Virus record (IMG/VR): IMGVR_UViG_3300021962_009794
DNA length: 64,000 bases
Origin: a virus
Lineage: Duplodnaviria > Heunggongvirae > Uroviricota > Caudoviricetes
Strand: one strand, 5' to 3'
Part shown: positions 9,498-52,548 of the stretch, piece by piece
Layout: each line of letters opens with the position of its first letter
How positions within the stretch are numbered: the first letter of the stretch is position 1
Translations under genes and position numbers: made by a program
The notes under the pieces: generated by a model
The model's database searches: none
Told to the model about the DNA's origin: nothing
The model's input: the letters and a program-made list of their open reading frames with translations, nothing else

Positions 9498-9822
9498 AGA
9501 CGAGAACAAAAGATGGTACGCAGATCTACCTGAGTACATTGCACAAGGAGGAACTGTGGAAGAGTGCGAGATGGTTTCCGGTGCCGATGATTGGCTAGAC
9601 TACATCTCGGGAAACCGAGATGCCGTTGTTTTAACTTTATCTGATCAGAATTCGCTATCCGAGAAAATGCTTTTATATGAGAGCGACGAATACGGTGCTA
9701 CTTATATAGCACACACCTACAAGGAAGAAGACGTTAACCAAGTACTTTGGCTTTGTCCAGTTACTGTTTTTGTATTCGGTAACTATCCAAGCACAATTTA
9801 CTATCACGTAATAAAGGAATGA
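9472..9822 (+). CDS. hypothetical protein (no ATG start; TTG at 9472 or internal ATG)
   Basis: ORF in the +1 frame overlapping the previous gene's end; start uncertain. Confidence 0.4.
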   Translation: MRKVIRFYRDENKRWYADLPEYIAQGGTVEECEMVSGADDWLDYISGNRDAVVLTLSDQNSLSEKMLLYESDEYGATYIAHTYKEEDVNQVLWLCPVTVFVFGNYPSTIYYHVIKE

Positions 9823-10958
9823 AATACGATTTAAACATATTAAACGAATACATTGAGCGTGGACTTCTGATAAAGAATCCGCATCCAACTTTGCCTCTGG
9901 ATATCTATAACTATTCAAGAGATTGCCAGTTTAGTGAATCTTGGGATGAGATCACGTTAAATATGAGAGGTACTGTTCTGGATCGTGAAGGCAACATCGT
10001 GGCTAGGGTTTTTCCTAAGTTCTTTAACATGGAAGAACATAAGTCAGGAGAAATACCAAATGAGGATTTTGAGGTGTTTGAAAAGATGGACGGATCCCTA
10101 GGAATTCTTTTTCACTACGAAGGGGAATGGCATTTAGCTACCCGTGGATCCTTTGCCTCAGACCAAGCAATAAAGGGTAAAGAGATTCTGAGCAGATACA
10201 GGTACGAAAAGTTGATCCCAGGATACACTTACCTTTTTGAAATCATCTATCCAGAAAACAGAATCGTTTGTGACTACGGGTACGAAGATTTAGTTATGCT
10301 TGCTGTTATCGATAACAAGGACGGATACGAGCTTAGAATCCACGACAACGACATACATCTTGAAGGTATTAGATTCGCGAATCTCTACAACAATCTAGGA
10401 TTCAAGATTGTTAAGAAGTACGACGGGGTTCAAGATTATAAGCAACTGAAATCGATGATCAAGAACAATGCTGAAGGATTTGTAATCAAATTCAAATCTG
10501 GATTCAGAATGAAGATCAAAGGGGAGGAGTACGTTAGGTTGCATAGGTTGCTAACCAACTTCTCAAACGTTGATATCTGGGAGCTGTTAAAAGACGGTAG
10601 AGATCTTGATGAATTTCTAGACAGAGTTCCTGATGAGTTTGACAAATGGGTTAAGAAAACTATTCGGGATTTACAATATCATAAATACGCAATCGAGGAG
10701 AGAGCAGGTAAGACCCACGATTATTTTAGATATGGTAAGTATAACGATCGTGAAACTGAACCTACTAAGAAAGAGTTTGCTGAGCATCTAGAATTTTGTA
10801 AGGTTGAACCAAGCATAAGATCTATATGTTTTGCAATATGGGACGGAAAGAACTACGATCACATCACCTGGAAGATAATAAAACCAAAATATCAAAAACC
10901 ATTTTGGAATAAAGAGGAAGAAATTCCAGCGGATTCAAAATGGCTTAAAAAAGATTAA
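9819..10958 (+). CDS. ATP-dependent RNA ligase, T4 Rnl1-like
   Basis: Nucleotidyltransferase motif I EKMDGSL (T4 Rnl1 has KEDGSL); KFFN segment upstream; motif IV/V EGFVIKFKSGFRMKIKGEEY (T4 Rnl1 has EGYV...FKIK...Y). Confidence 0.75.
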   Translation: MKYDLNILNEYIERGLLIKNPHPTLPLDIYNYSRDCQFSESWDEITLNMRGTVLDREGNIVARVFPKFFNMEEHKSGEIPNEDFEVFEKMDGSLGILFHYEGEWHLATRGSFASDQAIKGKEILSRYRYEKLIPGYTYLFEIIYPENRIVCDYGYEDLVMLAVIDNKDGYELRIHDNDIHLEGIRFANLYNNLGFKIVKKYDGVQDYKQLKSMIKNNAEGFVIKFKSGFRMKIKGEEYVRLHRLLTNFSNVDIWELLKDGRDLDEFLDRVPDEFDKWVKKTIRDLQYHKYAIEERAGKTHDYFRYGKYNDRETEPTKKEFAEHLEFCKVEPSIRSICFAIWDGKNYDHITWKIIKPKYQKPFWNKEEEIPADSKWLKKD

Positions 10959-11613: not shown

Positions 11614-11787
11614 ATGGTAACGCAAGAAATTTTAGACACATTCGTCTTCACCACAATCGGGGGAGAAAAATTTGGAGTTAATGATCCGACAGCTCACGAT
11701 GAGATTATTGGATATTACCCAACAAGACAAGAAGCTGAGAATGCTTTTAAGGAGTATATTGAAAAAGAAGGGATAATTTTCGAATAA
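11614..11787 (+). CDS. hypothetical small protein (57 aa, MVTQEILDTFVFTTIGGEKFG...)
   Basis: ORF below the track's 60-aa cut-off that fills the gap between two genes; its stop overlaps the next ATG (TAATG). Confidence 0.4.
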   Translation: MVTQEILDTFVFTTIGGEKFGVNDPTAHDEIIGYYPTRQEAENAFKEYIEKEGIIFE

Positions 11788-12236
11788 TGGAAAATGTAAG
11801 AAACGAAGAATACAGCACTTTGAATCCAACACTATTTCTTGTAAGAGGAATACCAGGATCAGGTAAGTCTACTTTCGCAAAGCACATCTGGAACGAGTAT
11901 GCAGTTTGTGAGGCTGATAAGTTTTTTCACAACAAAGAGACTGGTGAATACAACTTTGACGCATCAAGATTGAAAGAAGCTCATGAATGGTGCAGAAACG
12001 AGGTTGAGACTAGAATGAAAGATCACCAGGTTAATCCTCAGTATTATCCAGAGATCGTGGTTTCAAATACATTCACACAAGAATGGGAAATGCAGGCTTA
12101 TATCGATCTTGCCAAAAAATACGGTTATCAAGTCACAACATTAATCGTAGAGAACCGACACGGTAACTCAAATGTCCACAACGTTCCCGAGGAAACGCTG
12201 GATCGTATGAGACAAAGATTCGATGTAAAACTTTAA
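11787..12236 (+). CDS. P-loop polynucleotide-kinase-like kinase
   Basis: LFLVRGIPGSGKSTFAK Walker A at the N-terminus; size and layout like the T4 Pnk kinase domain. Confidence 0.6.
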   Translation: MENVRNEEYSTLNPTLFLVRGIPGSGKSTFAKHIWNEYAVCEADKFFHNKETGEYNFDASRLKEAHEWCRNEVETRMKDHQVNPQYYPEIVVSNTFTQEWEMQAYIDLAKKYGYQVTTLIVENRHGNSNVHNVPEETLDRMRQRFDVKL

Positions 12237-18689: not shown

Positions 18690-19307
18690 ATGCCAACAGG
18701 ATACACAGCAGGAGTGGTTGACGGAACCACCAAAACATTCAAAGATTTTGCAAAGATTTGCATGAGAGCTTTCGGGGCAGCGATTCATATGAGAGACGAA
18801 CCTCTGAGCAAGAAATATGAACACAGGGTTCCAGACGATTTCTATTACGAAAGAATTGAGGAAGCAAAGAAAAATCTTGCAGAACTCGATACGCTACCTG
18901 ACGAGCACTTCATTAAAGAGGAGCACGAGAAAATAAAGGATGATATCAGATACTACTCCGAAAAAATGAGAAAGGTTAAAGAAGCTAGAGAGAGATTAGA
19001 TTCCTTGCTGGAAGAAACATCTGAGTGGGAACCACCAACCACAGATCATGTGGAATTTAAGAATTTTATGATTCAACAACTCACCGAAACAATAAAATAT
19101 GATGGTGACGTTGAATATTATGAAGGAGAAATTGAGCGTCTTTATAAAAAATTAGATACCCCTATTGATCTGGACTCTGTTAAGAAAGATCTCAGAGAAT
19201 CTTACGAAGCTAATCTAAATAGGAGTCAAAAAAGTCTTGATGAAGAAATCGAAAGATGTAAAAAATCCCACGATTGGGCGGATCAATTATTAAAATCAAT
19301 AGAATAA
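18690..19307 (+). CDS. hypothetical coiled-coil protein
   Basis: ORF-track ORF 18648..19307 trimmed to the ATG at 18690 after the upstream stop. Confidence 0.5.
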   Translation: MPTGYTAGVVDGTTKTFKDFAKICMRAFGAAIHMRDEPLSKKYEHRVPDDFYYERIEEAKKNLAELDTLPDEHFIKEEHEKIKDDIRYYSEKMRKVKEARERLDSLLEETSEWEPPTTDHVEFKNFMIQQLTETIKYDGDVEYYEGEIERLYKKLDTPIDLDSVKKDLRESYEANLNRSQKSLDEEIERCKKSHDWADQLLKSIE

Positions 19308-19309
19308 GA

Positions 19310-20398
19310 ATGGAAAGGAAATTAGCATCCATACAAAGAATCGGAAACATACTTCCCATCGAGGGAGCAGACGCAATAGAAATCGTAACTGTTAACTCTT
19401 GGAAGGTTGTTTCTAAGAAGGGAGAATTTAATGAAGGGGATCTTTGTGTTTATTTCGAAATTGATTCGTTCTTACCTGTGAGAGAAGAATTCGAATTTCT
19501 TAGAAAATCATCTTATAAAAAGATGGGTGATGTCGAAGGATTCAGATTAAAGACAATCAAATTAAGAGGCCAGGTTTCTCAAGGACTTTGTCTTCCACTC
19601 AATATATTGGAAGGTCCAGATGAATTCGTAATCGGTGTCAGCAAGCAGCCTTGGGGAGATCAGCTTCAGATTGGACCTTATGATGACGCTTTTGTTATCG
19701 AGGAAGGTGCTGATGTAACAGAATACCTAGGTGTTCTTAAGTACGAGCCACCAGTTCCAGCAGAACTTGCAGGAAAGGTTAAAGGTCTATTCCCAGGTTT
19801 CATTAGAAAAACGGACGAGGAGAGAATCCAGAACATGACTAAGGAATACGACAGCATGCTTGATAAGCACTATTACGTAACAGAAAAACTCGACGGAAGT
19901 TCAGCTACATATTATTTCAAGGATGGTGTATTTGGCGTGTGTTCAAGAAATTTGGAGCTATTAGAAACAGAGGGAAATACTTTCTGGAAGGTTGCTAGAG
20001 AATTGCTTATCGAAGAGAAATTAAGAAACATAGGGGAGAATTACTCTATCCAAGGTGAGCTTATCGGAGAAGGCGTTCAGGGTAACCCCTACAAAATTAA
20101 AGGTCAAACTGTATTGATCTTTAACATTTTCAACATCGACAAGCAAGAGTATCTTAGTCTTGATGACATGGTTCATTTTCTACACAAAATAAATGTAGAC
20201 GATAAGCCTTTGGAGCTTGTGCCTGTCGTTAATTACGATTACAAATTACCTCCAACAATCGAGGAGATCATCAGATATGCTGACGGTAAATCAAGATTGA
20301 ATGAGGGAACAGATAGAGAGGGTATAGTTATCAGAAATAGAGACAAGAGTATTTCTTTTAAAGCTATATCAAATACGTTTTTATTAAAAGAGAAGTAA
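19310..20398 (+). CDS. second ATP-dependent RNA-ligase-like nucleotidyltransferase
   Basis: Motif I EKLDGSS with no Arg, which points to RNA rather than DNA ligase or capping enzyme; EGIVIRN and SFKAIS motif IV/V-like; N-terminal OB-like domain. Confidence 0.55.
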   Translation: MERKLASIQRIGNILPIEGADAIEIVTVNSWKVVSKKGEFNEGDLCVYFEIDSFLPVREEFEFLRKSSYKKMGDVEGFRLKTIKLRGQVSQGLCLPLNILEGPDEFVIGVSKQPWGDQLQIGPYDDAFVIEEGADVTEYLGVLKYEPPVPAELAGKVKGLFPGFIRKTDEERIQNMTKEYDSMLDKHYYVTEKLDGSSATYYFKDGVFGVCSRNLELLETEGNTFWKVARELLIEEKLRNIGENYSIQGELIGEGVQGNPYKIKGQTVLIFNIFNIDKQEYLSLDDMVHFLHKINVDDKPLELVPVVNYDYKLPPTIEEIIRYADGKSRLNEGTDREGIVIRNRDKSISFKAISNTFLLKEK

Positions 20399-31067: not shown

Positions 31068-32948
31068 ATGGCAGACAAAATGCAAATGTTACTTTCCTAT
31101 TCGTGGATGGTTATCCCAATCTTAGGAATTCTATTCTACAAATTCACTTTACGATTCTTCTTCGGAATGGTAATCATTCCAGAAGACAAGATCGGTTTAG
31201 TAACCAAAAAATTTGTTCTCTTCGGAGCAAACAAATCTCTACCTGACGGAAAAATCATCGCTCTAAACGGAGAGCCTGGTTTCCAAGCAGATACTCTAGC
31301 CCCTGGTTTATATTGGGGATATTGGGTTTGGCAGTATTCAATTGGACAAGCTGAACTAACTATAATTCCTAAAGGTAAAATTGGTTTACTCTCGGCTAAA
31401 GACGGTAAGCAATTGCCAACCGGTGCGATCTTAGCACGTCACGTAGAATGCGACAACTATCAAGATACTAGAGCATTCTTAACAAACGGAGGTCAAAGAG
31501 GTAAGCAAGTTGGATATCTTAATAACGGGGTTTATCGTATTAATCCTTACTTATTCGATTTAGCAATCTCTGACATCACCTACATTGAAGATGGTATGGT
31601 CGGCGTGGTAACCTCATTGGACGGTATTCCGTTAGACCAAGGTAACATCGCAGGTAATGCTATCGAGGGTCACAATAATTATCAGGACTTCGACAAATTT
31701 TTAGCTAACGGAGGGCAACGTGGTCTTCAAATCCAAGTCATTCAAGCTGGTAACTACTCATTAAACCCTTGGGCGGTTGAGATTGAGAAAGTTGAAATGA
31801 CTAAAATTCCAATCGGTCACGTAGGTGTAATCATCTCTTTCGTAGGTAAGGAAGGACAAGACGTAACTGGAGACGGATTCAAACACGGAAATATCGTAAA
31901 GAAAGGAGAAAAAGGTGTTTGTATCACTCCGCTGGATCCAGGTAAATACGCAATCAATCCTTATACTCATAAGATTGAGGTTGTACCAACAACAAACCTT
32001 GTATTGAACTGGGCAAATGCTCGCACAGAATCACACAACCTTGATAAAGGACTAAGCACGATCACTGTACGTTCTAAAGACGGTTTCCCATTCAACTTAG
32101 ACGTATCACAAATCATTCACATTCCTGCACCAGAGGCACCTAAAGTAATTGCCCGATTTGGTTCAATGCAGAATCTTGTATCGCAAGTTCTTGAGCCTAC
32201 TATCGGTAACTACTTCCGTAACTCTGCTCAGGATTCAGATGTTATCTCGTTCTTGTCTACACGTCAAAAACGTCAGGATGCTGCAAAAGAATCTATCTCT
32301 AAAGTTCTTGAGATGTACAACGTTCACGCAGTTGACACATTGATTGGAGACATCACTCCTCCTGAGTCTTTAATGAAAACATTAACCGATCGTAAGATCG
32401 CTCAAGAGGAAGAGGTTACATTTGAAACCCAACGTAAAGCTCAAGACCAACGTAAGACTTTAGAGTCTGCTAAGGCGCTGGCTGATATGCAAGGTCAAAT
32501 GGTATCTGCACAACAATCGGTAGAGATTTCACAACGTGAAGCTGAGGCGGCAGTTAAGAGATCGGAAGGTGAGGCTAAGGCTATGGAACTTAAAGCTGGA
32601 GCTCAGGCAAAAGCTAAGAAGTTAATGGCTGAGGCAGATGCTGCTCAGATCAAATTAACAGGGGACGCAGAAGCATCTAAGATTGCTGCTATCGGTAAAT
32701 CCACAGCAGAAGCTTACGAGCAACAGGTTAAAGCAATGGGAGCTGATAACTTCGGTAAATTAAAAGTTACTGAGATGATTGGTACAAACGGAATCAAAAT
32801 CATTCCTGAAGTACTTATCTCAGGTAACGACGGAGGAAATGGTCCAATCAGCGGATTACTTGGTATGGAATTACTGAAACAAATTCAAGAGAAGTCTGAT
32901 ACAAAGGACGTAAAAACAAATATAAAAGATGCAGGAGATCAAAAATAG
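31068..32948 (+). CDS. SPFH/band-7 flotillin-like membrane protein with internal duplication
   Basis: N-terminal TM helix; Ala/Glu/Lys-rich flotillin-like C-terminal coiled coil; internal repeats FLTNGGQRGKQVGYLNNGVYRINPY and FLANGGQRGLQIQVIQAGNYSLNPW. Confidence 0.55.
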   Translation: MADKMQMLLSYSWMVIPILGILFYKFTLRFFFGMVIIPEDKIGLVTKKFVLFGANKSLPDGKIIALNGEPGFQADTLAPGLYWGYWVWQYSIGQAELTIIPKGKIGLLSAKDGKQLPTGAILARHVECDNYQDTRAFLTNGGQRGKQVGYLNNGVYRINPYLFDLAISDITYIEDGMVGVVTSLDGIPLDQGNIAGNAIEGHNNYQDFDKFLANGGQRGLQIQVIQAGNYSLNPWAVEIEKVEMTKIPIGHVGVIISFVGKEGQDVTGDGFKHGNIVKKGEKGVCITPLDPGKYAINPYTHKIEVVPTTNLVLNWANARTESHNLDKGLSTITVRSKDGFPFNLDVSQIIHIPAPEAPKVIARFGSMQNLVSQVLEPTIGNYFRNSAQDSDVISFLSTRQKRQDAAKESISKVLEMYNVHAVDTLIGDITPPESLMKTLTDRKIAQEEEVTFETQRKAQDQRKTLESAKALADMQGQMVSAQQSVEISQREAEAAVKRSEGEAKAMELKAGAQAKAKKLMAEADAAQIKLTGDAEASKIAAIGKSTAEAYEQQVKAMGADNFGKLKVTEMIGTNGIKIIPEVLISGNDGGNGPISGLLGMELLKQIQEKSDTKDVKTNIKDAGDQK

Positions 32949-33819
32949 GATCTGTTGGAATAAGACAGATAAAGGTTCAGGTGAGATATTCTATTTAGCA
33001 ATGGAGTACACCGGAAAGGATCGGGACGGAAATGATACTGTTTCGATGAAGACTCTGAGAAAATTCTTTGAGTTAGAAACTTACATGATTAAATCAAAGG
33101 TTTCTAAAGAGCAGATAGCAGATCTGGAAAAGCTACATTCGGTAGATCCCAAAGCTATGCTAATCTCTACTATGGAAGAGGAGGATAAAAGAGGTCAGGA
33201 TAAGCTTATCTATAACATGATTAAGTATGCCGGAACTGTTAACGAAAAGATTGGATGGTCAACCATAGTTTTTAAAGCTAACGAATGGTTTGGATATCAG
33301 CCTAAGTTCAGGGTAAAAGAGGACTCGGACATATTCAGAAAGATAGTTTCCGTTTCTAATTTAATCCATAGGACAACGAGAAGATCAGATGCTGATTTTA
33401 TTATAGTAGGACCTGCTATGGGAGCTAGAATAATGAATCTACCGCAATTCGTTTACAACGACCCAAATCAGCCAGATCTAGATCGTAGTACAGGACTTAT
33501 ACATAAAGTTGGTAATCTCGGAAACAAATTCTCTGTAATAATCAATCCAATACTACATTGGAATGACGAGTCTATAGTTATAGGATCTAATACCTTTGAA
33601 GGACAGGAAGGAGTTTATCAGTATGAGATGGAACCAGAGGTAATTGAGACCGAGGGGATAAGTCCAACGAATTTTATGTCTGAGGTCATTCTCCACTACA
33701 AAAAAAGAATGGCTTTGGTAGCAACAGAAAATGCCCACTTAAAATACTATACTCTTAATACAACTACTAAAAGGCATAACATAGTAACTCATCTTATAGA
33801 TAAGATCTTTAAGAAATAA
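32929..33819 (+). CDS. hypothetical protein (296 aa)
   Basis: ORF. Confidence 0.55.
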   Translation: MQEIKNRICWNKTDKGSGEIFYLAMEYTGKDRDGNDTVSMKTLRKFFELETYMIKSKVSKEQIADLEKLHSVDPKAMLISTMEEEDKRGQDKLIYNMIKYAGTVNEKIGWSTIVFKANEWFGYQPKFRVKEDSDIFRKIVSVSNLIHRTTRRSDADFIIVGPAMGARIMNLPQFVYNDPNQPDLDRSTGLIHKVGNLGNKFSVIINPILHWNDESIVIGSNTFEGQEGVYQYEMEPEVIETEGISPTNFMSEVILHYKKRMALVATENAHLKYYTLNTTTKRHNIVTHLIDKIFKK

Positions 33820-39895: not shown

Positions 39896-39957
39896 TTACA
39901 CACAAAAATCGGGATCGATCCTAACGGGTTGATCCCTTTTTTATAAAAGAAAGAAAC

Positions 39958-41178
39958 ATGTCAATTTGGTTTTGTCTATTGATCCCCATTGTAGCAGCAT
40001 TAGTAATGCTCAAATGGTTCCCTAAGTATATGGCCTGGTGGGAGGGCGTCATTCCTTTAATTGTGTGTTTCGTTTTCATCGGTATATTTAAGTTCACCGT
40101 AGAAAAGGTAAGAGTAAATGATACAGAATATCACGGAGCTCTTATTGTAGAAGCAAGGTATTACGAGTATTGGGAAACGTATGTCCATAGGACCTGTACA
40201 AGAACAGTAAGCTGCGGTAAAAACTGCACAACAACAATATCGTATGACTGTTCGTATTGCGACGAAAATCCAGAACACTGGACGGTAGTAAACTCTCTAG
40301 GGAACGAATATGAAATATCTAAAGAGTTCTATGACTTTCTAGTAAAGAAATGGAAGGACACACCAGAATTCGTCGAGCTAAACAGAGATATCGACGACGG
40401 TGGATTTGGTTGCGGTAAAGATGGAGACATGTACAGGGTAAACTGGAATAAAGACCCAATGACAGCAGAAGCAACCACAACCGATCACTGGTACGAAAAC
40501 AGGGTTCAAGCTGCACACACAGCATTCGATTATCCGGAAGTTACCGAAGATGATGTTAAGAGCTATGGGTTATTCGATTACCCTGAACTAAAAGATCATC
40601 AACAAGAAACCGTATTAGGATTAGACAAAGTTAAATGGATGTCCAGACGCGAGTCAGATACAATGAAGCAATGGGCTAAATTTTTAAACGGGCATCTAGG
40701 AGTAAAGAAACATGCAAGGATCTATTTTCTATTCTTCACAGATAAGCCATCCTTATCGGCTAACATGCAGGAGGCTTATTGGGACGGAGGGAATGACAAT
40801 GAACTTGTAGTCTGTGTGGGATTAAGTAGCAAGACAAAGGAACTCCAATGGGTTCGTCCTTTTACTTGGTCGCCAGAAAGACGAATCATTCCAGACGTAA
40901 GAGAAATGATTATGGACCACAAGAAATTCAAACCTGACTATATCGCAGAATCTGTTTGGACAAATGTGGAAAAAGAATATAAAAGGAAGGACTTTAAAGA
41001 ATTTTCTTACATCACAGTAGAACCTCCAACTTGGGCTAAATGGACAACGTTCTTTATAACGTTAATCATAACAGGATTGGTGTGCTGGTGGGCGATCGCA
41101 AATGAAATTGATTCTGAATATGATCCAATAAAAGAATATTTTGTAAATAGAAGAAATAGAAATAACCATGGATATTAA
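39958..41178 (+). CDS. Cys-rich membrane protein (N- and C-terminal TM helices)
   Basis: TM helices at both ends; multiple Cys in the middle (CTRTVSCGKNCTT...CSYCDE). Confidence 0.55.
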   Translation: MSIWFCLLIPIVAALVMLKWFPKYMAWWEGVIPLIVCFVFIGIFKFTVEKVRVNDTEYHGALIVEARYYEYWETYVHRTCTRTVSCGKNCTTTISYDCSYCDENPEHWTVVNSLGNEYEISKEFYDFLVKKWKDTPEFVELNRDIDDGGFGCGKDGDMYRVNWNKDPMTAEATTTDHWYENRVQAAHTAFDYPEVTEDDVKSYGLFDYPELKDHQQETVLGLDKVKWMSRRESDTMKQWAKFLNGHLGVKKHARIYFLFFTDKPSLSANMQEAYWDGGNDNELVVCVGLSSKTKELQWVRPFTWSPERRIIPDVREMIMDHKKFKPDYIAESVWTNVEKEYKRKDFKEFSYITVEPPTWAKWTTFFITLIITGLVCWWAIANEIDSEYDPIKEYFVNRRNRNNHGY

Positions 41179-41590
41179 AAAATCAAGCCACCTAAATCGT
41201 CATTCAGATACGATAGTAGTTGAAAGAATATCGTTGACTGAATTTATAATGTCAGGATACTCTGATTTTTATCGGACTTCTCATACCGATGACAATAAGC
41301 TTATAATGTTTGATCCTCCAGGAGGACCTTACACCACAGCCAAACACGGAAATCAACCAGGAGCTGATATGGGTTACTATGAGGAAGAATGGAAAGGTCT
41401 TGTAGTGGAAACAATGAATTTTGTGGAGGATGGAATTAAATTAACCTGTTTCTATGAAACAAAAGTGGACTGGATTGACATAAAAGACAAGGGGGAATTT
41501 GACGAGGATCATGCTTTAAGCGAAGTTCTAAATGACATGATCAAAGATATAGACGTCGATGAACTATTAGATAACAAAGAAAATCAATAA
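41168..41590 (+). CDS. hypothetical acidic protein (140 aa)
   Basis: ORF. Confidence 0.5.
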   Translation: MDIKKSSHLNRHSDTIVVERISLTEFIMSGYSDFYRTSHTDDNKLIMFDPPGGPYTTAKHGNQPGADMGYYEEEWKGLVVETMNFVEDGIKLTCFYETKVDWIDIKDKGEFDEDHALSEVLNDMIKDIDVDELLDNKENQ

Positions 41591-41602: not shown

Positions 41603-42286
41603 ATGAACTACAGATCAGAATTTGAAAAGTACGCTAGAAGCGAACACGGAATCTCCTCACTGAGATTGGATTACTTCGATAAAAGAATCCAATCGTCAAT
41701 GACGCCTTATATCTTAGAGGAAAGAGAAATGAGAGTTACTCAGATGGATATCTTCTCACGTTTAATGAGAGATCGCATTCTTTGGGTTGCTGGAGGAGTT
41801 GATGATGACATGTCGACTGTGGTTCAGGCTCAGCTGATGTTTTTAGATTCTGTTGACGACAGAGACATCACTATGCACATCGATTCACCAGGTGGATCTG
41901 TTAAGTCCGGTCTATCTATGATTGATGTTATGGAATACATCGCATGTGACATCAGAACAGTAAATACCGGAATGGCAGCATCAATGGGATCTGTTTTATT
42001 GGGAGCAGGTACTAAAGGTAAAAGAAGCTCTTTGAGATTCAGTAAGGTGATGCTTCACCAATCAAGCGGAGGATTTAGAGGAAATATCCAGGATGCAAAG
42101 ATTGATATGCAAGAGTGGGAAGAGGTTAACAAGATTCTTTTCGATCTTCTTGGAAGTTACTGCGGTAAGAAACCAGAGCAGGTCATGAAAGATGCAACTA
42201 GAGATTTCTGGTTAAGTGCAGAAGAGGCAGTAAAATACGGAATCATTGATGAAGTAGTTCTCAAGAAGGAGAAAAAAAGAAAATAA
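41603..42286 (+). CDS. clpP: ATP-dependent Clp protease proteolytic subunit ClpP
   Basis: Canonical ClpP blocks: RDRILWVAGGVDD, AQLMFLDS, IDSPGGSV, GMAASMGS (catalytic Ser), MLHQSSGG (His). Confidence 0.85.
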   Translation: MNYRSEFEKYARSEHGISSLRLDYFDKRIQSSMTPYILEEREMRVTQMDIFSRLMRDRILWVAGGVDDDMSTVVQAQLMFLDSVDDRDITMHIDSPGGSVKSGLSMIDVMEYIACDIRTVNTGMAASMGSVLLGAGTKGKRSSLRFSKVMLHQSSGGFRGNIQDAKIDMQEWEEVNKILFDLLGSYCGKKPEQVMKDATRDFWLSAEEAVKYGIIDEVVLKKEKKRK

Positions 42287-42711
42287 TGCAATCCATAGTT
42301 AACCGTAAGGCCAGATTTGAATACACGTTTATTGACACCTACACTGCGGGGATATGCCTAATTGGCTCCGAAGTTAAGGCTATCAAAGACGGCAGGGCTT
42401 CTATGGTTGACACATATTGCATTTTTAATAAAGAAGAACTTTGGGTTAAGGGACTAGGGATAACTCCTGGTCCTGGCTCATTTCAGCACGAAGCACTCAG
42501 GGACAAGAAACTTCTACTGAGAAAGAAAGAGCTAAAAAAGCTGAGATCGTCTTTGGATAAAGGTCTTACGATAATACCTGTTAAGATATTCGTAAACGAA
42601 AAGAATAGGTTAAAGATGGAAATAGCTTTAGCTAGAGGTAAGAAGCTTTATGACAAAAGGGAATCTATTAAGGAAAGGGATATAGAGAGGGACATGAGAA
42701 GGAACGATTAA
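42286..42711 (+). CDS. smpB: SsrA-binding protein SmpB
   Basis: NRKARFEYTFIDTYTAGICLIGSEVKA...KLLLRKKEL...KIALARGKKLYDKRESIKERD aligns with bacterial SmpB along its whole length. Confidence 0.85.
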   Translation: MQSIVNRKARFEYTFIDTYTAGICLIGSEVKAIKDGRASMVDTYCIFNKEELWVKGLGITPGPGSFQHEALRDKKLLLRKKELKKLRSSLDKGLTIIPVKIFVNEKNRLKMEIALARGKKLYDKRESIKERDIERDMRRND

Positions 42712-43603: not shown

Positions 43604-43700
43604 CAAAAAAGATGAAACATTATTAATTTGACCTGGTATAACGAACGTAACCCTATCGAGGTTGATCATAGATCTTTTTAGGTGTTTGTTTTGGTTCACG

Positions 43701-43732
43701 CCTCCAGGATTGGTTTCCTGGAGGTTTTTTTT
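43701..43732 (+). terminator. rho-independent terminator
   Basis: cctccagga-ttggttt-cctggagg hairpin followed by TTTTTTTT. Confidence 0.65.
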
Positions 43733-43762
43733 GATATATAGTAAACAAATAATTCAATATAA

Positions 43763-44567: not shown

Positions 44568-44642
44568 GGTCCCTTAGCTCAGTTGGTCAGTAGCGGCGGC
44601 CTCATAAGCCGAAGGTCACAGGTTCAAGTCCTGTAGGGACCA
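44568..44642 (+). tRNA. tRNA-Met (anticodon CAU; could be elongator Met or a lysidine-modified Ile2)
   Basis: Hand fold: acceptor GGTCCCT/AGGGACC; anticodon stem GCGGC/GCCGA with loop CTCATAA; T-arm ACAGG-TTCAAGT-CCTGT; discriminator A; no encoded CCA. Confidence 0.65.
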
Positions 44643-44725
44643 CAAAGTGTTGTCACCTTGAGAAAGTGATGTTATATAGTGGCTTTGACTGAGTGCCAAC
44701 AACACTAAGGGGTTCTCTCCCTTAA

Positions 44726-44802
44726 TACTCGGGTATCTCCTCATGCTTATACCATGTAGAAAGAGTAATTGGTTACATAAGGGTTCAAGTCCCTTCCCGA
44801 GT
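44726..44802 (+). tRNA. tRNA-like element (canonical acceptor and T arm, unresolved core)
   Basis: ACTCGGG/CCCGAGT acceptor, AAGGG-TTCAAGT-CCCTT T-arm, discriminator A. The 45-nt core does not fold into canonical D and anticodon arms by hand, and is preceded by a structured 85-nt spacer with nested hairpins. Confidence 0.35.
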
Positions 44803-44826
44803 ACAAAAACAAATTAAAAAAATAAT

Positions 44827-46613: not shown

Positions 46614-47663
46614 ATGGAAAAGAAAAATATTTGGAATCAGGACGGTAACACATTTACCCTCGGAGAAACAACTAAGCACATCAAAACTCTCCCAGCAGGA
46701 GTGTATGTGTTGAATAAAAGCATGTTCGGATTTTATCTCGATAGGATAGAAGGGAAGTTCGAGTTTGGCCACAAACTATACGGCTTGGAAACAGCTCTTA
46801 TTGATCGTGTTATCAAAACATGGAACTCGACCAATAAGAATTTGGGTGTGCTTCTAAACGGTCTCAAAGGAACCGGTAAGACGGTAACTGCTAAAGTGAT
46901 CTGCAACAAACTAAATCTACCGGTTATTCTGATCAATGAAAATCCAGAAGGAGGAGGGATTCCCGATTTCCTAAACGAAATCGAACAAGATGTGATCGTG
47001 ATGATGGACGAGTACGAAAAAGTATTTGGCGAGGATGCAGAACTTTTGACTGTGATGGATGGAGTATTAACATCGACTTCCAGAAAGCTATTCATGCTTA
47101 CCACAAACAACACCTACATCAACGAAAACCTTTTACAAAGACCTAGCAGGATCCGATACCAAAAAACTTTCAAAGATCTTTCGCCAGAGGTCATTGAAGA
47201 GATTGTGGACGATCTTCTTAAGTACAAGAAGCACAAGGGAGAGCTAATCTCTTCAATATCTAATCTTGAGGTGATCACAATCGATGTTGTCAAATCTATT
47301 ATCGAGGAGATCAACATTCATAACGAGCCACCTTCAGTTTTCATGGACGTCTTTAACGTTAAAAAGATCACTGGGAAGTACACAGTGACCAAATTAACCG
47401 AAATGAAAGGCGGAGAGATTATAGAAGAGATCTTACACAAAGGTGTTAGGATCTATCCTAGAGAATTCGACGAGGATTACGTTGGAAGATACTTCGAAAT
47501 AGACGGGGATTATATAGGACAGATAACAAAGGTTCTGGACACGGATGTGATCGCAATCAAACCGAACAAAAGGGGAGCTAAAGAAATTATACTAAAGATT
47601 TCAGACTACAACTCCATCCACAAGAATTTCAAGTACAAAAATTTCGAACATCTCGTTTTCTAA
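46614..47663 (+). CDS. AAA+ family ATPase
   Basis: Walker A LNGLKGTGKTVTAK; Walker B VIVMMDEYEK. Confidence 0.6.
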   Translation: MEKKNIWNQDGNTFTLGETTKHIKTLPAGVYVLNKSMFGFYLDRIEGKFEFGHKLYGLETALIDRVIKTWNSTNKNLGVLLNGLKGTGKTVTAKVICNKLNLPVILINENPEGGGIPDFLNEIEQDVIVMMDEYEKVFGEDAELLTVMDGVLTSTSRKLFMLTTNNTYINENLLQRPSRIRYQKTFKDLSPEVIEEIVDDLLKYKKHKGELISSISNLEVITIDVVKSIIEEINIHNEPPSVFMDVFNVKKITGKYTVTKLTEMKGGEIIEEILHKGVRIYPREFDEDYVGRYFEIDGDYIGQITKVLDTDVIAIKPNKRGAKEIILKISDYNSIHKNFKYKNFEHLVF

Positions 47664-48008: not shown

Positions 48009-48088
48009 GGTCCTAGAGCTTAAACCGGCGTGGAAGTCGAGTCTGCCTCTAAAACAGATAGCATCGGGTTCAAATCCTGCTAGGATCA
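48009..48088 (+). tRNA. tRNA-like element with CUA triplet in an anticodon-loop-like context (possible amber-reading suppressor; non-canonical fold)
   Basis: Acceptor GGTCCTA/TAGGATC (one G-T wobble); T-loop TTCAAAT; internal stem GTCTG/CAGAT closing a C-T-CTA-A-A loop (positions 48047-48053, CTA at 48049-48051); the D-arm is overlong. Confidence 0.35.
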
Positions 48089-48111
48089 CGAAAAAGTTCT
48101 TTGAAAAATAT

Positions 48112-48182
48112 AGTCAGGTGGCGGAATTGGTAGACGCTAGTTATTTATACGAAAGTTACAGGTTCGAATCCTGTCCTGACTA
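48112..48182 (+). tRNA. tRNA-like element (Leu-type D arm, aberrant anticodon region)
   Basis: Acceptor AGTCAGG/CCTGACT; D-arm GCGG-AATTGGTAGA-CGC identical to a bacterial tRNA-Leu; T-arm ACAGG-TTCGAAT-CCTGT; region between D and T arms is only about 20 nt and has no 5-bp anticodon stem (only a small AC-GAAA-GT hairpin). Confidence 0.4.
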
Positions 48183-48422
48183 CACGGTTCGGTTCATCTC
48201 CGAATAGTATGCCCAATACGATGAGAAGTAGGATGATTACCTACATGGGACTTCTGATAGGGAAACGCTCTATCTGGTTTGACTAACCACGGAGAAGATC
48301 AAAGAGGCGTAAGAACAACGTACGTTTCATAAGTCTATTTCTAACTTTACAATAACCACTTACCAGTGGGAGTAAAGGACAGCCACGACACCTGCAAGTT
48401 GAATAAATTAGGGTGTTAATAC

Positions 48423-48506
48423 AGTCAGGTAGCGCACGGGTTAGCGCGTTGGTGAGCAATAAAAAGCAAAAGACAAAGGTAACAGGTTCGAGTCCTGTCC
48501 TGGCTA
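48423..48506 (+). tRNA. tRNA-like element (paralog of 48112..48182 with aberrant, extended anticodon region)
   Basis: Acceptor AGTCAGG/CCTGGCT; D-arm GCGC-ACGGGTTA-GCGC; T-arm ACAGG-TTCGAGT-CCTGT; a 33-nt A-rich stretch sits where the anticodon and variable arms should be. Confidence 0.4.
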
Positions 48507-49034: not shown

Positions 49035-49397
49035 ATTAAATTTCAACAACCGAAACTTGTCATCGTAACAAGACAAGACATCAACCCAGGTTACCAAGTG
49101 GTTCAGTCCACGCATTCAATCGCCGACTTTGCTTACGAGCATCCAGAAATATTCGGCAAATGGAAAGAAGAGTCAAACTCTATAATTTGTCTTTCCGCAA
49201 AATCACAAGAACACTTATTAAAACTTCATGAGAAATATTCTCATCTAACAGAGGCATCATTGTTTTTTGAGCCTGACGTAGACGAGTATACATCATTGTG
49301 CCTTTATGGATCGCCAGAGATTCGTAAAGGCCTTTCTCATTTGCCCCTATGTAATCCTAAAAATCAAATAAAAAAAGAAAGCTATGAAAACAAGTGA
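49035..49397 (+). CDS. PTH2-family peptidyl-tRNA hydrolase with uncertain start
   Basis: KLVIVTRQDINPGYQVVQSTHS...IICLSAKSQEHLLKL...SLCLYGSP aligns with the Pth2 fold. The first canonical start is a GTG at 49098, inside the conserved N-terminal strand. The in-frame ATG at 49026 is followed two codons later by an in-frame TAG (49032). Confidence 0.5.
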   Translation: MKFQQPKLVIVTRQDINPGYQVVQSTHSIADFAYEHPEIFGKWKEESNSIICLSAKSQEHLLKLHEKYSHLTEASLFFEPDVDEYTSLCLYGSPEIRKGLSHLPLCNPKNQIKKESYENK

Positions 49398-51111: not shown

Positions 51112-52548
51112 TTACTTTTGATAATCTCTGATTACCACTTTGTTTACCTTCAAGTTAGGCGTTTGAATTCCGCCACTCTTATAAACAACAACATCATATT
51201 TGTCTGAAGTGTTAATCTCGTATTTGAAAACAGTCATTAGCTTACCGTCTTCGCTAACTGGATTACAACATCCTTTAAGACATGTTTTGTTTCTAGGGTC
51301 ACTATGGTTAGCACCAAAGAATGTCATAACACCTACGAAAGATTCGCTCTGCATGTCATATGGTTTACCTTCAGCGTGATTAACATAAACTTCATAGAAT
51401 CCGGTAGGATCTGTGTCGAATGTTGTGTAGATCTCTAAAAGAGTTTTTTGATGATTATACTTAGCAGGCTTATTTAAAGTGGCTACGTGAGTAGCAGCTT
51501 CTTTTAGAATTTTATTAGATGACTCAGAACCTATAATTTGTTTTGGTCCTATGTTAGCATCAGAAGCTTTTAAATTCTCCTTAACCTTTACGTCATCATA
51601 ATCATAGTCCATGTTGTAAACGATGGCTAATACCTCCTCCGGAGTGTAAACAACAGATTTACCATTCTCGTCGAAGAATTGATATTTCCATGGGTTGTCT
51701 TTTAACTGCTGTAGAGTAATCTTTTTACCGTTTGGAGAGTTTAACCATTGCTGAAACACTCTATCAATATTAGCGTGGTGAGCCCAGAAAATAGGATCGA
51801 AAGCTGCACTCGGTACTTCTGACATCATACCAAAATGAGAATTACGTTGATAGATCTTGTTGTAGTACCAAACAGATCCTGGATTGTTACCAGATCCGAT
51901 ATAGTTGTGCATTTGTCCGTGAATGTTCTGATCAAAGTAAGAATTGAATGTTTGGTAGTCAGTGATCTGCATCATCTTAGGATAAGTGCTCTGAATAACT
52001 CTTAATGTTCCGCCGCTGATTGGGTGACCGTTATTTAAAGAATCAAGTCTTGCTTCCTCGTATAAAGAACTGTTAACATCTCTCCATTTCTTAGGCATGA
52101 TCTTATCTCTCTTGTCGTAGTTAGTGTAACCCCAATAAGGTAATGCGAAATCAGATTTACCTGAAAGTTTTCTTACGATCTTTTCAAAATGCCAGATGTA
52201 TAATCTGTGCCAGATAAGGAAATTGATTTCTTCAGCACCACTGTGAGAGTGCGTGCACTCATCCCAAGCCATTTTTAATTCTGTCCAGTCGCTATATGAT
52301 TCACATAACTTATTAGAGTCGATATGTGAAGGAACCCAGTGAATAGCAGCTTGATAGTACCAGCTGGTTGGATCGTCACATCCTTTTAGTTTCATAACAG
52401 TCATTGCGCTATCAAGAGCTTCGATGTCAGCCAAAGCCTCAGACGAGTTGGCATTTTTTCTCACATATCTTAAATCGTTTTCGCTAGTAGTACACGAAGA
52501 TATGGCCGTGACTAATAGGGCAAATAGAATTACAATTTTTGTTTTCAT
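51112..52548 (-). CDS. secreted tyrosinase (type-3 copper polyphenol oxidase) lipoprotein
   Basis: Signal peptide plus lipobox MKTKIVILFALLVTAISSC; CuA site H...FLIWHRLYIWHFE; CuB site HGQMHNYIG...DPIFWAHHANIDR. Confidence 0.7.
   Translation of the reverse strand: MKTKIVILFALLVTAISSCTTSENDLRYVRKNANSSEALADIEALDSAMTVMKLKGCDDPTSWYYQAAIHWVPSHIDSNKLCESYSDWTELKMAWDECTHSHSGAEEINFLIWHRLYIWHFEKIVRKLSGKSDFALPYWGYTNYDKRDKIMPKKWRDVNSSLYEEARLDSLNNGHPISGGTLRVIQSTYPKMMQITDYQTFNSYFDQNIHGQMHNYIGSGNNPGSVWYYNKIYQRNSHFGMMSEVPSAAFDPIFWAHHANIDRVFQQWLNSPNGKKITLQQLKDNPWKYQFFDENGKSVVYTPEEVLAIVYNMDYDYDDVKVKENLKASDANIGPKQIIGSESSNKILKEAATHVATLNKPAKYNHQKTLLEIYTTFDTDPTGFYEVYVNHAEGKPYDMQSESFVGVMTFFGANHSDPRNKTCLKGCCNPVSEDGKLMTVFKYEINTSDKYDVVVYKSGGIQTPNLKVNKVVIRDYQK

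What the first reader, a model, noticed from the sequence alone, without database searches (positions are those of the whole stretch)
41603..42711. Phage-encoded ClpP immediately followed by SmpB (trans-translation factor) with no recognisable tmRNA in the window
A bona fide ClpP (catalytic Ser/His context intact) ends exactly where a full-length SmpB begins, at 42286. SmpB is the obligate protein partner of tmRNA (SsrA), and ClpXP degrades ssrA-tagged proteins. A phage copy of both suggests manipulation of ribosome rescue, for example to survive translational stress caused by tRNA cleavage. Together with the PTH2 gene at 49.0 kb, the tRNA genes and the tRNA repair enzymes, this defines a translation-rescue theme. 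No tmRNA-sized gene was found by hand, so either the host tmRNA is used or a divergent tmRNA lies elsewhere.
Basis: partly seen in the sequence, partly recalled or inferred. Interest (0 to 1): 0.7.

Follow-up and report, generated by a model that had tools for sequence, protein, structure and literature searches.

The report
Phage ClpP-SmpB pair; tmRNA elsewhere
A roughly 350 kb phage that probably infects Bacteroidota carries a real ClpP protease gene fused end-to-start with a real SmpB gene, and its close relatives also encode their own tmRNA about 78 kb away, so the phage seems to bring a ribosome-rescue kit, which is already known from huge phages.

Summary
ClpP (41603-42286) and SmpB (42286-42711) are adjacent on the + strand, and the ClpP stop overlaps the SmpB start (TAATG). 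ClpP is of the cellular type with Ser/His/Asp intact. SmpB passes the TIGR00086 cut-off and keeps a full C-terminal tail. Both genes are under strong purifying selection (dN/dS 0.02-0.09). ARAGORN and Rfam find no tmRNA in the window.

The open question was resolved by walking along a 348,582 bp relative whose SmpB is 90% identical. That contig carries a full-length tmRNA (RF00023, 62.6 bits) about 78 kb from smpB. The same tmRNA family occurs in 22 variants of this phage group. All keep G3:U70 and A73 and show compensatory stem changes. They share a conserved tag of about 25 residues ending in YAYAA, AIAA or AVAA. I did not show the tmRNA in the window's own strain; that is inferred from relatives on either side of it.

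The closest cellular SmpBs found are, with one exception, from Bacteroidota (46-55% identity), and none of 80 such genomes has clpP next to smpB. Other huge phages (Lak, LR7456/LR7565 series) have both genes but far apart. Phage SmpB and tmRNA were reported by Al-Shayeb et al. 2020. This is a new member of a known kind, with a phage-specific clpP-smpB linkage.

The parts
39911..39936 (+). Terminator-like hairpin plus T-run just upstream of the gene cluster; likely upstream boundary of the transcription unit
   Evidence: 11-pair stem with 6 GC pairs, followed by TTTTTT
39958..41178 (+). First gene of the cluster: 406 aa, Cys-rich, hydrophobic at both ends, function unknown (phrog_2087)
   Evidence: Its end overlaps the next gene by 11 nt. 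Conserved upstream of clpP in all close relatives.
41168..41590 (+). Second gene of the cluster: 140 aa, no family match
41603..42286 (+). clpP: cellular-type ClpP proteolytic subunit with Ser/His/Asp intact and the long N-terminal extension also modelled by NCBIfam PRK14514
   Evidence: dN/dS 0.02-0.09 among diverged relatives.
42284..42288 (+). TAATG junction: the clpP stop overlaps the smpB start (translational-coupling geometry)
   Evidence: Relatives have a 7-nt spacer or, in one case, an inserted gene.
42286..42711 (+). smpB: full-length SsrA-binding protein with a complete C-terminal tail (G118-K-K-L-Y-D-K-R125 ... D141)
   Evidence: dN/dS 0.04-0.09 among diverged relatives.
44568..44643 (+). 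tRNA-Met(CAU), about 1.9 kb downstream of smpB (context)
48009..48506 (+). Cluster of three tRNA-like genes (48009-48088, 48112-48182, 48423-48506) with unusual D or anticodon arms, plus a conserved 240-nt spacer. Context only; tested and rejected as a tmRNA.

Best explanation
The window comes from a jumbo phage of about 330-350 kb, probably infecting Bacteroidota, that carries its own parts of the trans-translation (ribosome-rescue) pathway.

Shown:
- A four-gene + strand cluster ends in clpP and smpB, with the clpP stop overlapping the smpB start.
- Both proteins keep the residues their bacterial counterparts need.
- Both genes evolve under strong purifying selection.
- Relatives with 90% and (by contig-length match) 64% identical SmpB also carry a full-length tmRNA. 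It has the alanine identity pair G3:U70, discriminator A73 and compensatory stem changes. Its tag reading frame of about 25 codons is conserved at the protein level and ends in YAYAA, AIAA or AVAA.

Inferred:
- The window's own genome carries the same tmRNA outside the window.
- Phage SmpB binds the tRNA-like domain of that tmRNA, and perhaps of the host tmRNA too.
- Host AlaRS and EF-Tu load it onto ribosomes stalled on broken or stop-less mRNAs.
- The nascent chain receives the tag, and the Ala-Ala C-terminus sends it to a ClpX-type unfoldase feeding ClpP. The phage ClpP raises or replaces that proteolytic capacity.
- Making ClpP and SmpB from one message ties rescue capacity to disposal capacity.
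- The likely benefit is to keep ribosomes and amino acids available during infection, when host mRNA decay and RNA-cleaving defences create many stalled ribosomes. The neighbouring RNA-ligase/kinase repair genes and extra tRNAs fit the same need.
For: ClpP identity and triad. SmpB identity and tail. Junction.

Purifying selection at dS about 0.3-2.6: SmpB dN/dS 0.04-0.09 and ClpP 0.02-0.09.

Phage context: Gp23 capsid gene, PHROG hits, and IMG/VR contigs up to 348,582 bp.

tmRNA on the same 348 kb contig as smpB: ARAGORN and Rfam RF00023 at 62.6 bits, full length 1-374.

tmRNA family: in 16 of 18 further loci at 47-86 bits and on a 329,875 bp scaffold at 73.9 bits. SmpB P0072, 64% identical, is also recorded on a contig of exactly that length.

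In 22 of 22 variants the acceptor and T stems are perfect, G3:U70 and A73 are invariant, and compensatory changes occur at six pair positions.

The tag frame is conserved with synonymous changes.

A 57.7 kb contig physically links an orthologue of the window's first gene to the tmRNA.

The closest cellular SmpBs found are, with one exception, from Bacteroidota, and none of 80 has clpP within 5 kb, so the linkage arose in the phage.

Literature: tmRNAs and SmpB are listed among huge-phage translation genes (PMC7162821).
Against: - The tmRNA was not seen in the window, in the 10 kb upstream, or in about 7 kb downstream of near-identical contigs.
- No contig of the window's exact strain carrying the tmRNA was recovered, despite several look-ups.
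- The exact-match tmRNA pattern did not hit samples 3300021961 or 3300008113, which hold window-identical contigs.
- Gene order upstream of the window differs somewhat from the 348 kb relative.
- No ClpX/ClpA-like unfoldase was found in about 230 kb of clade sequence held or in the neighbouring AAA protein, so ClpP would depend on a host partner.
- ClpP scores below the NCBIfam equivalog cut-offs (245 vs 361). It has His where E. coli has Tyr62 in the unfoldase-docking pocket.
- clpP and smpB are separated by an inserted gene in one relative, so coupling is not obligatory.
- No functional data exist.
Confidence: 0.7

Rival explanations
1. SmpB works only with the host tmRNA. The window's strain has no tmRNA of its own, and the phage simply tops up SmpB and ClpP, which become limiting after host shut-off.
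For: No tmRNA in 64 kb of window plus about 17 kb of flanks in near-identical contigs. The tmRNA pattern had no exact hit in two samples that hold window-identical contigs. SmpB is of the Bacteroidota type, so it should fit a Bacteroidota host tmRNA.
Against: Every lineage of the group that could be examined at the syntenic locus has the tmRNA, including lineages whose SmpB is closer to (90%) and further from (64%) the window's. Only about a quarter of the genome of the window's strain was seen. The pattern scan needed an exact 21-mer.
Confidence: 0.15
2. The phage SmpB, or tmRNA-SmpB pair, acts against the host system: it competes for stalled ribosomes or for host tmRNA and so blocks or redirects host trans-translation, rather than rescuing ribosomes for the phage's benefit.
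For: A phage tRNA-like-domain-only tmRNA (mycobacteriophage DS6A) is reported to inhibit endogenous tmRNA in E. coli (PMC11915505).
Against: SmpB keeps the hinge Gly, the Lys-Lys, the aromatic residue and the D-K-R of the tail, at full length. The phage tmRNA has a complete, conserved tag frame ending in an Ala-Ala degron rather than lacking one. A co-expressed ClpP fits completion of the pathway.
Confidence: 0.08
3. The ClpP is the phage's head-maturation (prohead) protease of the ClpP-related S14 type, and its position next to smpB is incidental.
For: The top PHROG hits are annotated 'head maturation protease' (phrog_94, 124 bits). A Gp23-type capsid gene lies about 8 kb upstream.
Against: NCBIfam head-maturation ClpP-related model: 68 bits against a cut-off of 120. 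Cellular ClpP models: 196-245 bits over their full length. The protein shares 38% identity with E. coli ClpP over 192 aligned residues. It has no scaffold or capsid fusion (227 aa). From general knowledge, T4-type capsids use a gp21-type protease, not ClpP. The linkage with smpB is kept across lineages at dS of about 1.
Confidence: 0.04
4. The contig is bacterial or a mis-binned cellular fragment, so clpP and smpB are ordinary host genes.
For: NCBI carries the 90% relative of SmpB as 'MAG: Actinobacteria bacterium'.
Against: The closest cellular SmpBs found reach only 46-55% identity and, with one exception, are from Bacteroidota. The neighbours are phage genes: Gp23, Rnl1, PHROG families, lysis genes. 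Coding is about 95% with many small ORFs of unknown function. No bacterial genome shows this clpP-smpB adjacency.
Confidence: 0.02

Closest known systems
Bacterial trans-translation system (tmRNA/SsrA + SmpB, with ClpXP degrading tagged proteins)
   Same: SmpB passes the equivalog models and keeps the tail motif. The relatives' tmRNA is full length with G3:U70 and A73, and its tag ends in Ala-Ala. ClpP has the catalytic triad.
   Different: The parts are encoded by a phage. In bacteria smpB is not next to clpP (0 of 80 Bacteroidota genomes). No ClpX was found.
Translation gene sets of huge phages (Al-Shayeb et al. 2020, PMC7162821; Lak megaphages of Prevotella)
   Same: The paper names SmpB and tmRNAs. 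Here tblastn finds SmpB and ClpP in Lak-A/B/C, LR745206, LR756502 and LR756504. A Bacteroidota host is likely.
   Different: In those genomes the two genes are 240-360 kb apart. Examples: Lak-B5 at 112 kb vs 472 kb; LR745206 at 333 kb vs 75 kb. Identity is only 39-49% for SmpB and 43-64% for ClpP. This clade is smaller (330-350 kb), uses the standard code (TAG is a stop), and has clpP-smpB fused stop-to-start.
Phage-encoded tmRNAs in other phages (crAss-like cr272_1/cr50_1 annotated SsrA; Streptomyces phages with tag ANSKFAFALAA; mycobacteriophage DS6A tRNA-like-domain-only form)
   Same: A phage carries a tmRNA gene. The IMG/VR loci fetched here show many more.
   Different: Those records were not found to carry SmpB in the tblastn search (one search lists none of them). 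The tag here is longer and belongs to a distinct conserved family shared with other low-GC phage contigs (L057, L110, L143).
ClpP-related prohead proteases (MEROPS S14 phage branch; NCBIfam NF045542)
   Same: Same fold family. The PHROG annotation points there.
   Different: The score is below that model's cut-off and far higher for cellular ClpP. There is no scaffold domain, and the gene is not in a head-gene block.

Membership tests
SmpB (TIGR00086 / PF01668) | Sequence scores above the curated equivalog cut-off over the full length | tested here: met
   TIGR00086: 159.6 bits vs 119.1. NF003843: 156.6 vs 130. Pfam: 158.4 vs 27, covering 3-140 of 143.
SmpB (TIGR00086 / PF01668) | C-terminal tail with hinge Gly, Lys-Lys, an aromatic residue and D-K-R, long enough to reach the mRNA channel | tested here: met
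   The tail runs G118 K K L Y122 D K R125 ... D141, 24 residues from the Gly, comparable in length to the T. thermophilus tail as aligned. It aligns to solved SmpBs through residue 138-139. GKK, DKR, I128, K129 and R135 are invariant in 12 relatives. The roles of these residues are from my own knowledge of E. coli SmpB.
SmpB (TIGR00086 / PF01668) | A tmRNA partner encoded in the same genome | tested here: inconclusive
   Absent from the window. Present on the same 348 kb contig as the 90% orthologue. Not shown for the window's own strain.
SmpB (TIGR00086 / PF01668) | Binds the tmRNA tRNA-like domain and supports tagging | not testable with these tools
   Needs biochemistry or genetics.
ClpP (PF00574; TIGR00493 / PRK14514) | Family-level sequence match | tested here: met
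   Pfam: 193 bits vs 20.2. 110 solved ClpP sequences matched, best E = 7e-48.
ClpP (PF00574; TIGR00493 / PRK14514) | Score above the NCBIfam equivalog cut-offs (strict orthologue of cellular ClpP) | tested here: not met
   PRK14514: 245 vs 361. TIGR00493: 196 vs 308.6. This is a diverged ClpP, not an equivalog-level match.
ClpP (PF00574; TIGR00493 / PRK14514) | Ser-His-Asp catalytic triad | tested here: met
   GMAASMG, MLHQ and TRDFW align with S97, H122 and D171 of E. coli ClpP. They are conserved in five relatives.
ClpP (PF00574; TIGR00493 / PRK14514) | Tetradecamer that docks a Clp ATPase through the hydrophobic pocket | not testable with these tools
   No ClpX/ClpA was found in the sequence held. 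The pocket position equivalent to E. coli Tyr62 is His; its significance is unknown.
ClpP-related head-maturation protease (NF045542) | Score above the model cut-off | tested here: not met
   68 bits vs 120.
tmRNA (Rfam RF00023) | Covariance-model score above gathering, inside the window | tested here: not met
   No hit even at E<=5 to 10. ARAGORN found none.
tmRNA (Rfam RF00023) | Covariance-model score above gathering, G3:U70 and a tag frame, in relatives of the window's phage | tested here: met
   47-86 bits at full length in 19 loci. G3:U70 and A73 in 22 of 22 variants, with compensatory changes. Conserved tag frame.
PTH2 peptidyl-tRNA hydrolase (PF01981), claimed at 49.0 kb | Score above the Pfam gathering cut-off | tested here: not met
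   19.5 bits vs 23, with 39 residues matched. The ORF has no ATG start, and gene callers did not call it.

The most novel reading that the evidence does not exclude
The phage clade may run a private rescue-and-destroy circuit. Its own tmRNA writes a phage-specific tag of about 25 residues. The conserved internal motif VW(D/E)xINxFG would be read by a phage factor, or by the phage ClpP complex, which carries His at the Tyr62 docking position. SmpB and ClpP are made from one message. The whole circuit would serve as a counter-defence against host systems that stall ribosomes by cutting tRNAs or mRNAs, alongside the RNA-ligase repair genes and the odd tRNA-like genes next door.
Probability: 0.15. 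Interest if true: 0.75.

Novelty: new member of a known kind. Interest (0 to 1): 0.42.

Why it matters
If the inference holds, this phage group supplies the RNA (tmRNA), its protein partner (SmpB) and the protease core (ClpP) of bacterial ribosome rescue. That leaves only charging, delivery and unfolding to the host.

The system could be used to ask what trans-translation is worth to a virus. It also offers a family of long, conserved tags whose internal motif has no known reader.

There is a practical point as well. ARAGORN at default settings missed about three quarters of these tmRNA variants that Rfam scores above threshold. Surveys that count phage tmRNAs with ARAGORN alone probably undercount them.

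Tried and rejected
It did show that tmRNAs are common in viral contigs.

2. A tmRNA found next to a holin-like gene in L056/L057 belongs to a distant phage that shares only lysis genes with this one. It is not syntenic.

3. blastn hits of that tmRNA in the huge phages LR756502 and LR745206 are not tmRNAs by ARAGORN or Rfam. Whether those genomes have a tmRNA elsewhere was not determined.

4. The tRNA-like genes at 48.1 and 48.4 kb, and the element at 44.7 kb, were considered as a divergent or minimal tmRNA. This was rejected: there is no G3:U70, the D stems are normal, the D arm resembles tRNA-Leu, and they have no tmRNA-family hit and only tRNA matches.

5. The AAA protein at 46614-47663 was considered as a ClpX-like partner. 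It has only a generic AAA match, phrog_2376 'ATPase' and no solved relative.

6. I tried to tie the tmRNA to the window's exact strain through the neighbouring SLT and DUF2828 proteins. All contigs recovered came from other lineages or samples.

7. The L10-leader-like hit at 43614-43739 (29 bits, cut-off 44) is mostly a terminator hairpin.

8. Megablast of 6 kb around the genes against GenBank phages found no match.
Full report
**What is in the window.** The DNA reads AAAATAATGCAA, so the TAA stop of the first ORF overlaps the ATG of the second. They end a run of four tightly packed + strand genes (39958-41178, 41168-41590, clpP, smpB). That run begins just after a strong terminator-like hairpin at 39911-39936. 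A convergent gene overlaps the smpB stop.

**ClpP.** The protein matches Pfam CLP_protease at 193 bits over nearly the whole profile. It matches NCBIfam cellular ClpP models at 196-245 bits over their full length. The ClpP-related head-maturation model gives only 68 bits against a cut-off of 120. It does not reach the strict equivalog cut-offs (245 vs 361), so it is a diverged ClpP. It hits 110 solved ClpP sequences (best E = 7e-48). The Ser, His and Asp of the triad align in GMAASMG, MLHQ and TRDFW. PHROG labels of 'head maturation protease' reflect the shared fold, not a better match. One difference from E. coli ClpP is His at the position of Tyr62, in the pocket where Clp ATPases dock. I cannot tell what this means.

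**SmpB.** The protein passes both NCBIfam equivalog cut-offs (159.6 vs 119.1 and 156.6 vs 130). It aligns with solved SmpBs through residue 138-139. The tail GKKLYDKRESIKERDIERDMRRND is comparable in length to that of Thermus thermophilus SmpB as aligned. It keeps the hinge Gly, the Lys-Lys, an aromatic residue and D-K-R. From my knowledge of E. coli SmpB (G132, K133-K134, H136, D137-K138-R139), these are the residues needed for accommodation and tagging. They are invariant in twelve relatives.

**Are the genes in use?** Relatives were found in IMG/VR and in ENA, JGI and Logan assemblies. Between lineages with dS of about 0.3-1.1, SmpB has dN/dS of 0.04-0.09. ClpP has 0.02-0.09 at dS of 0.4-2.6. 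Both are clearly maintained by selection.

**What kind of genome.** The window is identical to part of an 85 kb ENA contig. Its relatives include IMG/VR contigs of 126,808 and 348,582 bp and an ENA scaffold of 329,875 bp. Neighbours include a T4-type Gp23 capsid protein, T4 RNA ligase 1, a second RNA ligase, an AAA_33 kinase, a sigma factor, lysis genes and many ORFs without matches. The crude coding fraction is 95%, and TAA, TAG and TGA are all used as stops. NCBI's label 'Actinobacteria bacterium' for the 90% SmpB relative looks like mis-binning. The closest cellular SmpBs found reach 46-55% identity. With one exception (a 4.9 kb contig labelled Limnohabitans), all are from Bacteroidota: Cytophagales, Chitinophagales, Sphingobacteriales, Bacteroidales and Flavobacteriales. 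This points to a Bacteroidota source and probably a Bacteroidota host.

**How special is the adjacency?** clpP-smpB adjacency holds in all close relatives. They have a TAATG overlap or a 7-nt spacer. In the 348 kb relative a nucleotide-sugar dehydrogenase gene has been inserted between the two. A relative with 55% identical SmpB has no clpP within 10 kb. Lak megaphages and the LR7456/LR7565 huge phages encode both proteins, but hundreds of kilobases apart. None of 80 Bacteroidota genomes has clpP within 5 kb of smpB. The linkage is therefore a derived feature of this phage clade. It suggests selection for co-expression, but it is not obligatory.

**The tmRNA question.**
- There is none within 10 kb upstream or about 7 kb downstream in near-identical contigs.
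- I then walked along the 348,582 bp relative in 10 kb steps, using end proteins as queries.
- At contig position 200,185-200,650, about 78 kb from smpB (about 122.0-122.4 kb) and on the same strand, ARAGORN called a tmRNA. Rfam RF00023 confirmed it at 62.6 bits, E = 1.7e-23, model positions 1-374.
- A 21-mer from it found 10 IMG/VR contigs and 22 JGI metagenome contigs. Rfam scored 16 of 18 tested loci above gathering (47-86 bits).
- The tmRNA is also on the 329,875 bp scaffold (73.9 bits). The SmpB relative P0072 (64% identical) is recorded on a contig of exactly that length from the same sources. Co-location there is inferred from the matching length.
- A 57.7 kb IMG/VR contig carries both an orthologue of the window's first gene and the tmRNA.

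**Is the tmRNA real and functional-looking?** Across 22 variants:
- the 7-bp acceptor stem and the 5-bp T stem are perfectly paired in every one;
- pair 3:70 is always G:U (the alanine identity element);
- the discriminator is always A;
- compensatory double changes occur at acceptor pairs 4, 6 and 7 and at T pairs 1, 2 and 4.

ARAGORN's tag (EVEYAYAA) is only the end of a longer open frame. Homology among variants and the Rfam alignment place the resume codon at a GGC after AAAU or AAAC. This gives GKKSVWDAINSFGTPVTEVEYAYAA in the 348 kb phage and GKKANVWEAINNFGAPVTTKQAIAA in the 329,875 bp one. Across lineages the frame is kept and several changes are synonymous, for example GAC/GAT, CCT/CCC and GCT/GCA/GCG. 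An overlapping +1 frame is also open, but its substitutions are not conservative. The C-terminal A-x-A-A resembles the Ala-Ala end recognised by ClpX (my knowledge of the E. coli ssrA tag). The internal motif VW(D/E)xINxFG has no known reader. It resembles FEDAM(S/A)FVG in tags of other low-GC phage tmRNAs (L057, L110, L143).

**What remains inference.** I did not see the tmRNA in the window's own strain. Look-ups through the neighbouring SLT and DUF2828 proteins returned other lineages. The exact 21-mer did not hit two samples that hold window-identical contigs, although it did hit one such sample (Ga0315909) and two with neighbouring JGI identifiers. Gene order just upstream of the window differs somewhat from the 348 kb relative. 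The tmRNA is present in lineages both closer to and further from the window's than one another. I therefore put the chance that the window's genome has it at about 0.8-0.85. The best lead is ENA ERZ27247995 k141_136821. It carries the exact product of window gene 576-2120 at one end and runs 110 kb upstream.

**Mechanism.** The best-supported reading is a phage-borne trans-translation kit.
- SmpB, and in all likelihood a phage tmRNA, rescue ribosomes stalled on damaged or stop-less mRNAs, using host AlaRS and EF-Tu.
- The tag's Ala-Ala end routes products to a ClpX-type unfoldase with ClpP.
- The phage ClpP, made from the same message as SmpB, adds proteolytic capacity.
- No Clp ATPase was found in about 230 kb of clade sequence, so a host partner is assumed.
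- The RNA ligases, the kinase and the extra tRNAs in the window fit a broader theme of keeping translation running when RNAs are being cut. That link is circumstantial.
- PTH2 should be dropped from the theme unless better evidence appears.

**Comparison with what is known.** Al-Shayeb et al. 2020 list tmRNAs and SmpB among the translation genes of huge phages, and used ARAGORN to find tmRNAs. Their supplementary annotations include ClpP, ClpX, ClpS and SsrA-binding protein in several genomes. Annotated tmRNAs exist in crAss-like and Streptomyces phages. A tmRNA database paper notes a tag-less phage form that inhibits host tmRNA. Phage SmpB plus tmRNA is therefore a known kind. What is particular here:
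- a smaller (about 350 kb), standard-code clade that is widespread in metagenomes;
- the stop-start fusion of clpP and smpB;
- a conserved long-tag tmRNA family that ARAGORN at default settings mostly misses.

**Verdict.** The finding is a solid new member of a known kind, of moderate interest.

Noticed in passing
window 48112-48182 and 48423-48506; relatives L008 13897-14030 and 14198-14268, L011 12466-12550 and 12650-12718: A family of tRNA-like genes shares the acceptor stem AGTCAGG/CCTGACT(A) and normal T arms; the window copy at 48112 and the L008 copies also share a tRNA-Leu-like D arm. The central (anticodon) part is unpaired, short, or replaced by inserts of 33-82 nt that differ between strains. 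Rfam tRNA scores them 42-43 bits by skipping the anticodon arm. Default ARAGORN misses them. Relaxed ARAGORN reads one as Lys(UUU) with a mismatched stem. They may be tRNAs that evade nucleases, or decoys. They are not tmRNA.
   Followed up: partly
window 48009-48088: A weak tRNA (26.5 bits, below the cut-off of 29) has the anticodon loop CUCUAAA, i.e. anticodon CUA (a possible amber suppressor), and an oversized D region. TAG still ends 17 of 102 crude ORFs, so there is no sign of recoding in this window.
   Followed up: partly
window 48183-48422: A 240-nt non-coding stretch lies between the two tRNA-like genes. It is 94% conserved in a relative (L008) and has several hairpins. One hairpin shows a compensatory change (CCACT...AGTGG to TCACT...AGTGA). 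No Rfam family matches. It may be an unknown structured RNA.
   Followed up: partly
window 44725-44806: Directly after tRNA-Met is a cloverleaf-like element with a 7-8 bp acceptor stem (ACTCGGG/CCCGAGT), a good T arm and aberrant other arms. The surrounding spacer (44644-44812) is 96-97% conserved in close relatives. Neither Rfam nor default ARAGORN calls it.
   Followed up: partly
window 9819-10958, 11787-12236, 19274-20398: An RNA repair set: T4-type RNA ligase 1, an AAA_33 (polynucleotide-kinase-like) kinase, and a second RNA ligase (PF09414/PHA02142).
   Followed up: partly
window 49098-49397: A PTH2-like ORF scores only 19.5 bits (cut-off 23). It has no ATG start and there is an in-frame stop just upstream. 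The gene callers whose calls are on record did not call it. Its best PHROG hit is a family of unknown function (phrog_1866).
   Followed up: yes
L012 9130-10000 (348 kb relative, between clpP and smpB): A gene resembling UDP-glucose/GDP-mannose dehydrogenase (nucleotide-sugar dehydrogenase), judged by eye from its translation, is inserted between clpP and smpB in this lineage only.
   Followed up: partly
L329, L330, L335, L351, L363, L373, L393, L402 and others: Method note. Default ARAGORN called only about a quarter of the phage tmRNA variants that Rfam RF00023 scores above gathering at full length. Where it did call them, it reported only the last 8 residues of a tag of about 25 residues.
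   Followed up: yes
L339/L340 1-20500; L402: The neighbourhood of the relatives' tmRNA holds DnaJ, a topoisomerase subunit, a family-B DNA polymerase with an intein in some lineages, an ATP-grasp (RimK-like) protein, a lytic transglycosylase, DUF2828/DUF7788, a metallophosphatase and RNase HII. Which genes lie between the transglycosylase and the tmRNA varies between lineages.
   Followed up: no
window 51112-52548 (-), 31068-33819 (+): A tyrosinase-family protein (478 aa) is encoded in a phage. A 626-aa Band_7/SPFH protein sits directly upstream of a short (296 aa) Gp23-family capsid protein. Both are unusual and neither was examined.
   Followed up: no
L320 1228-1299 (348 kb contig, about 182.5 kb): A canonical tRNA-Lys(UUU) is encoded about 60 kb from smpB in the relative. 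It lies well away from the tRNA cluster seen in the window.
   Followed up: no
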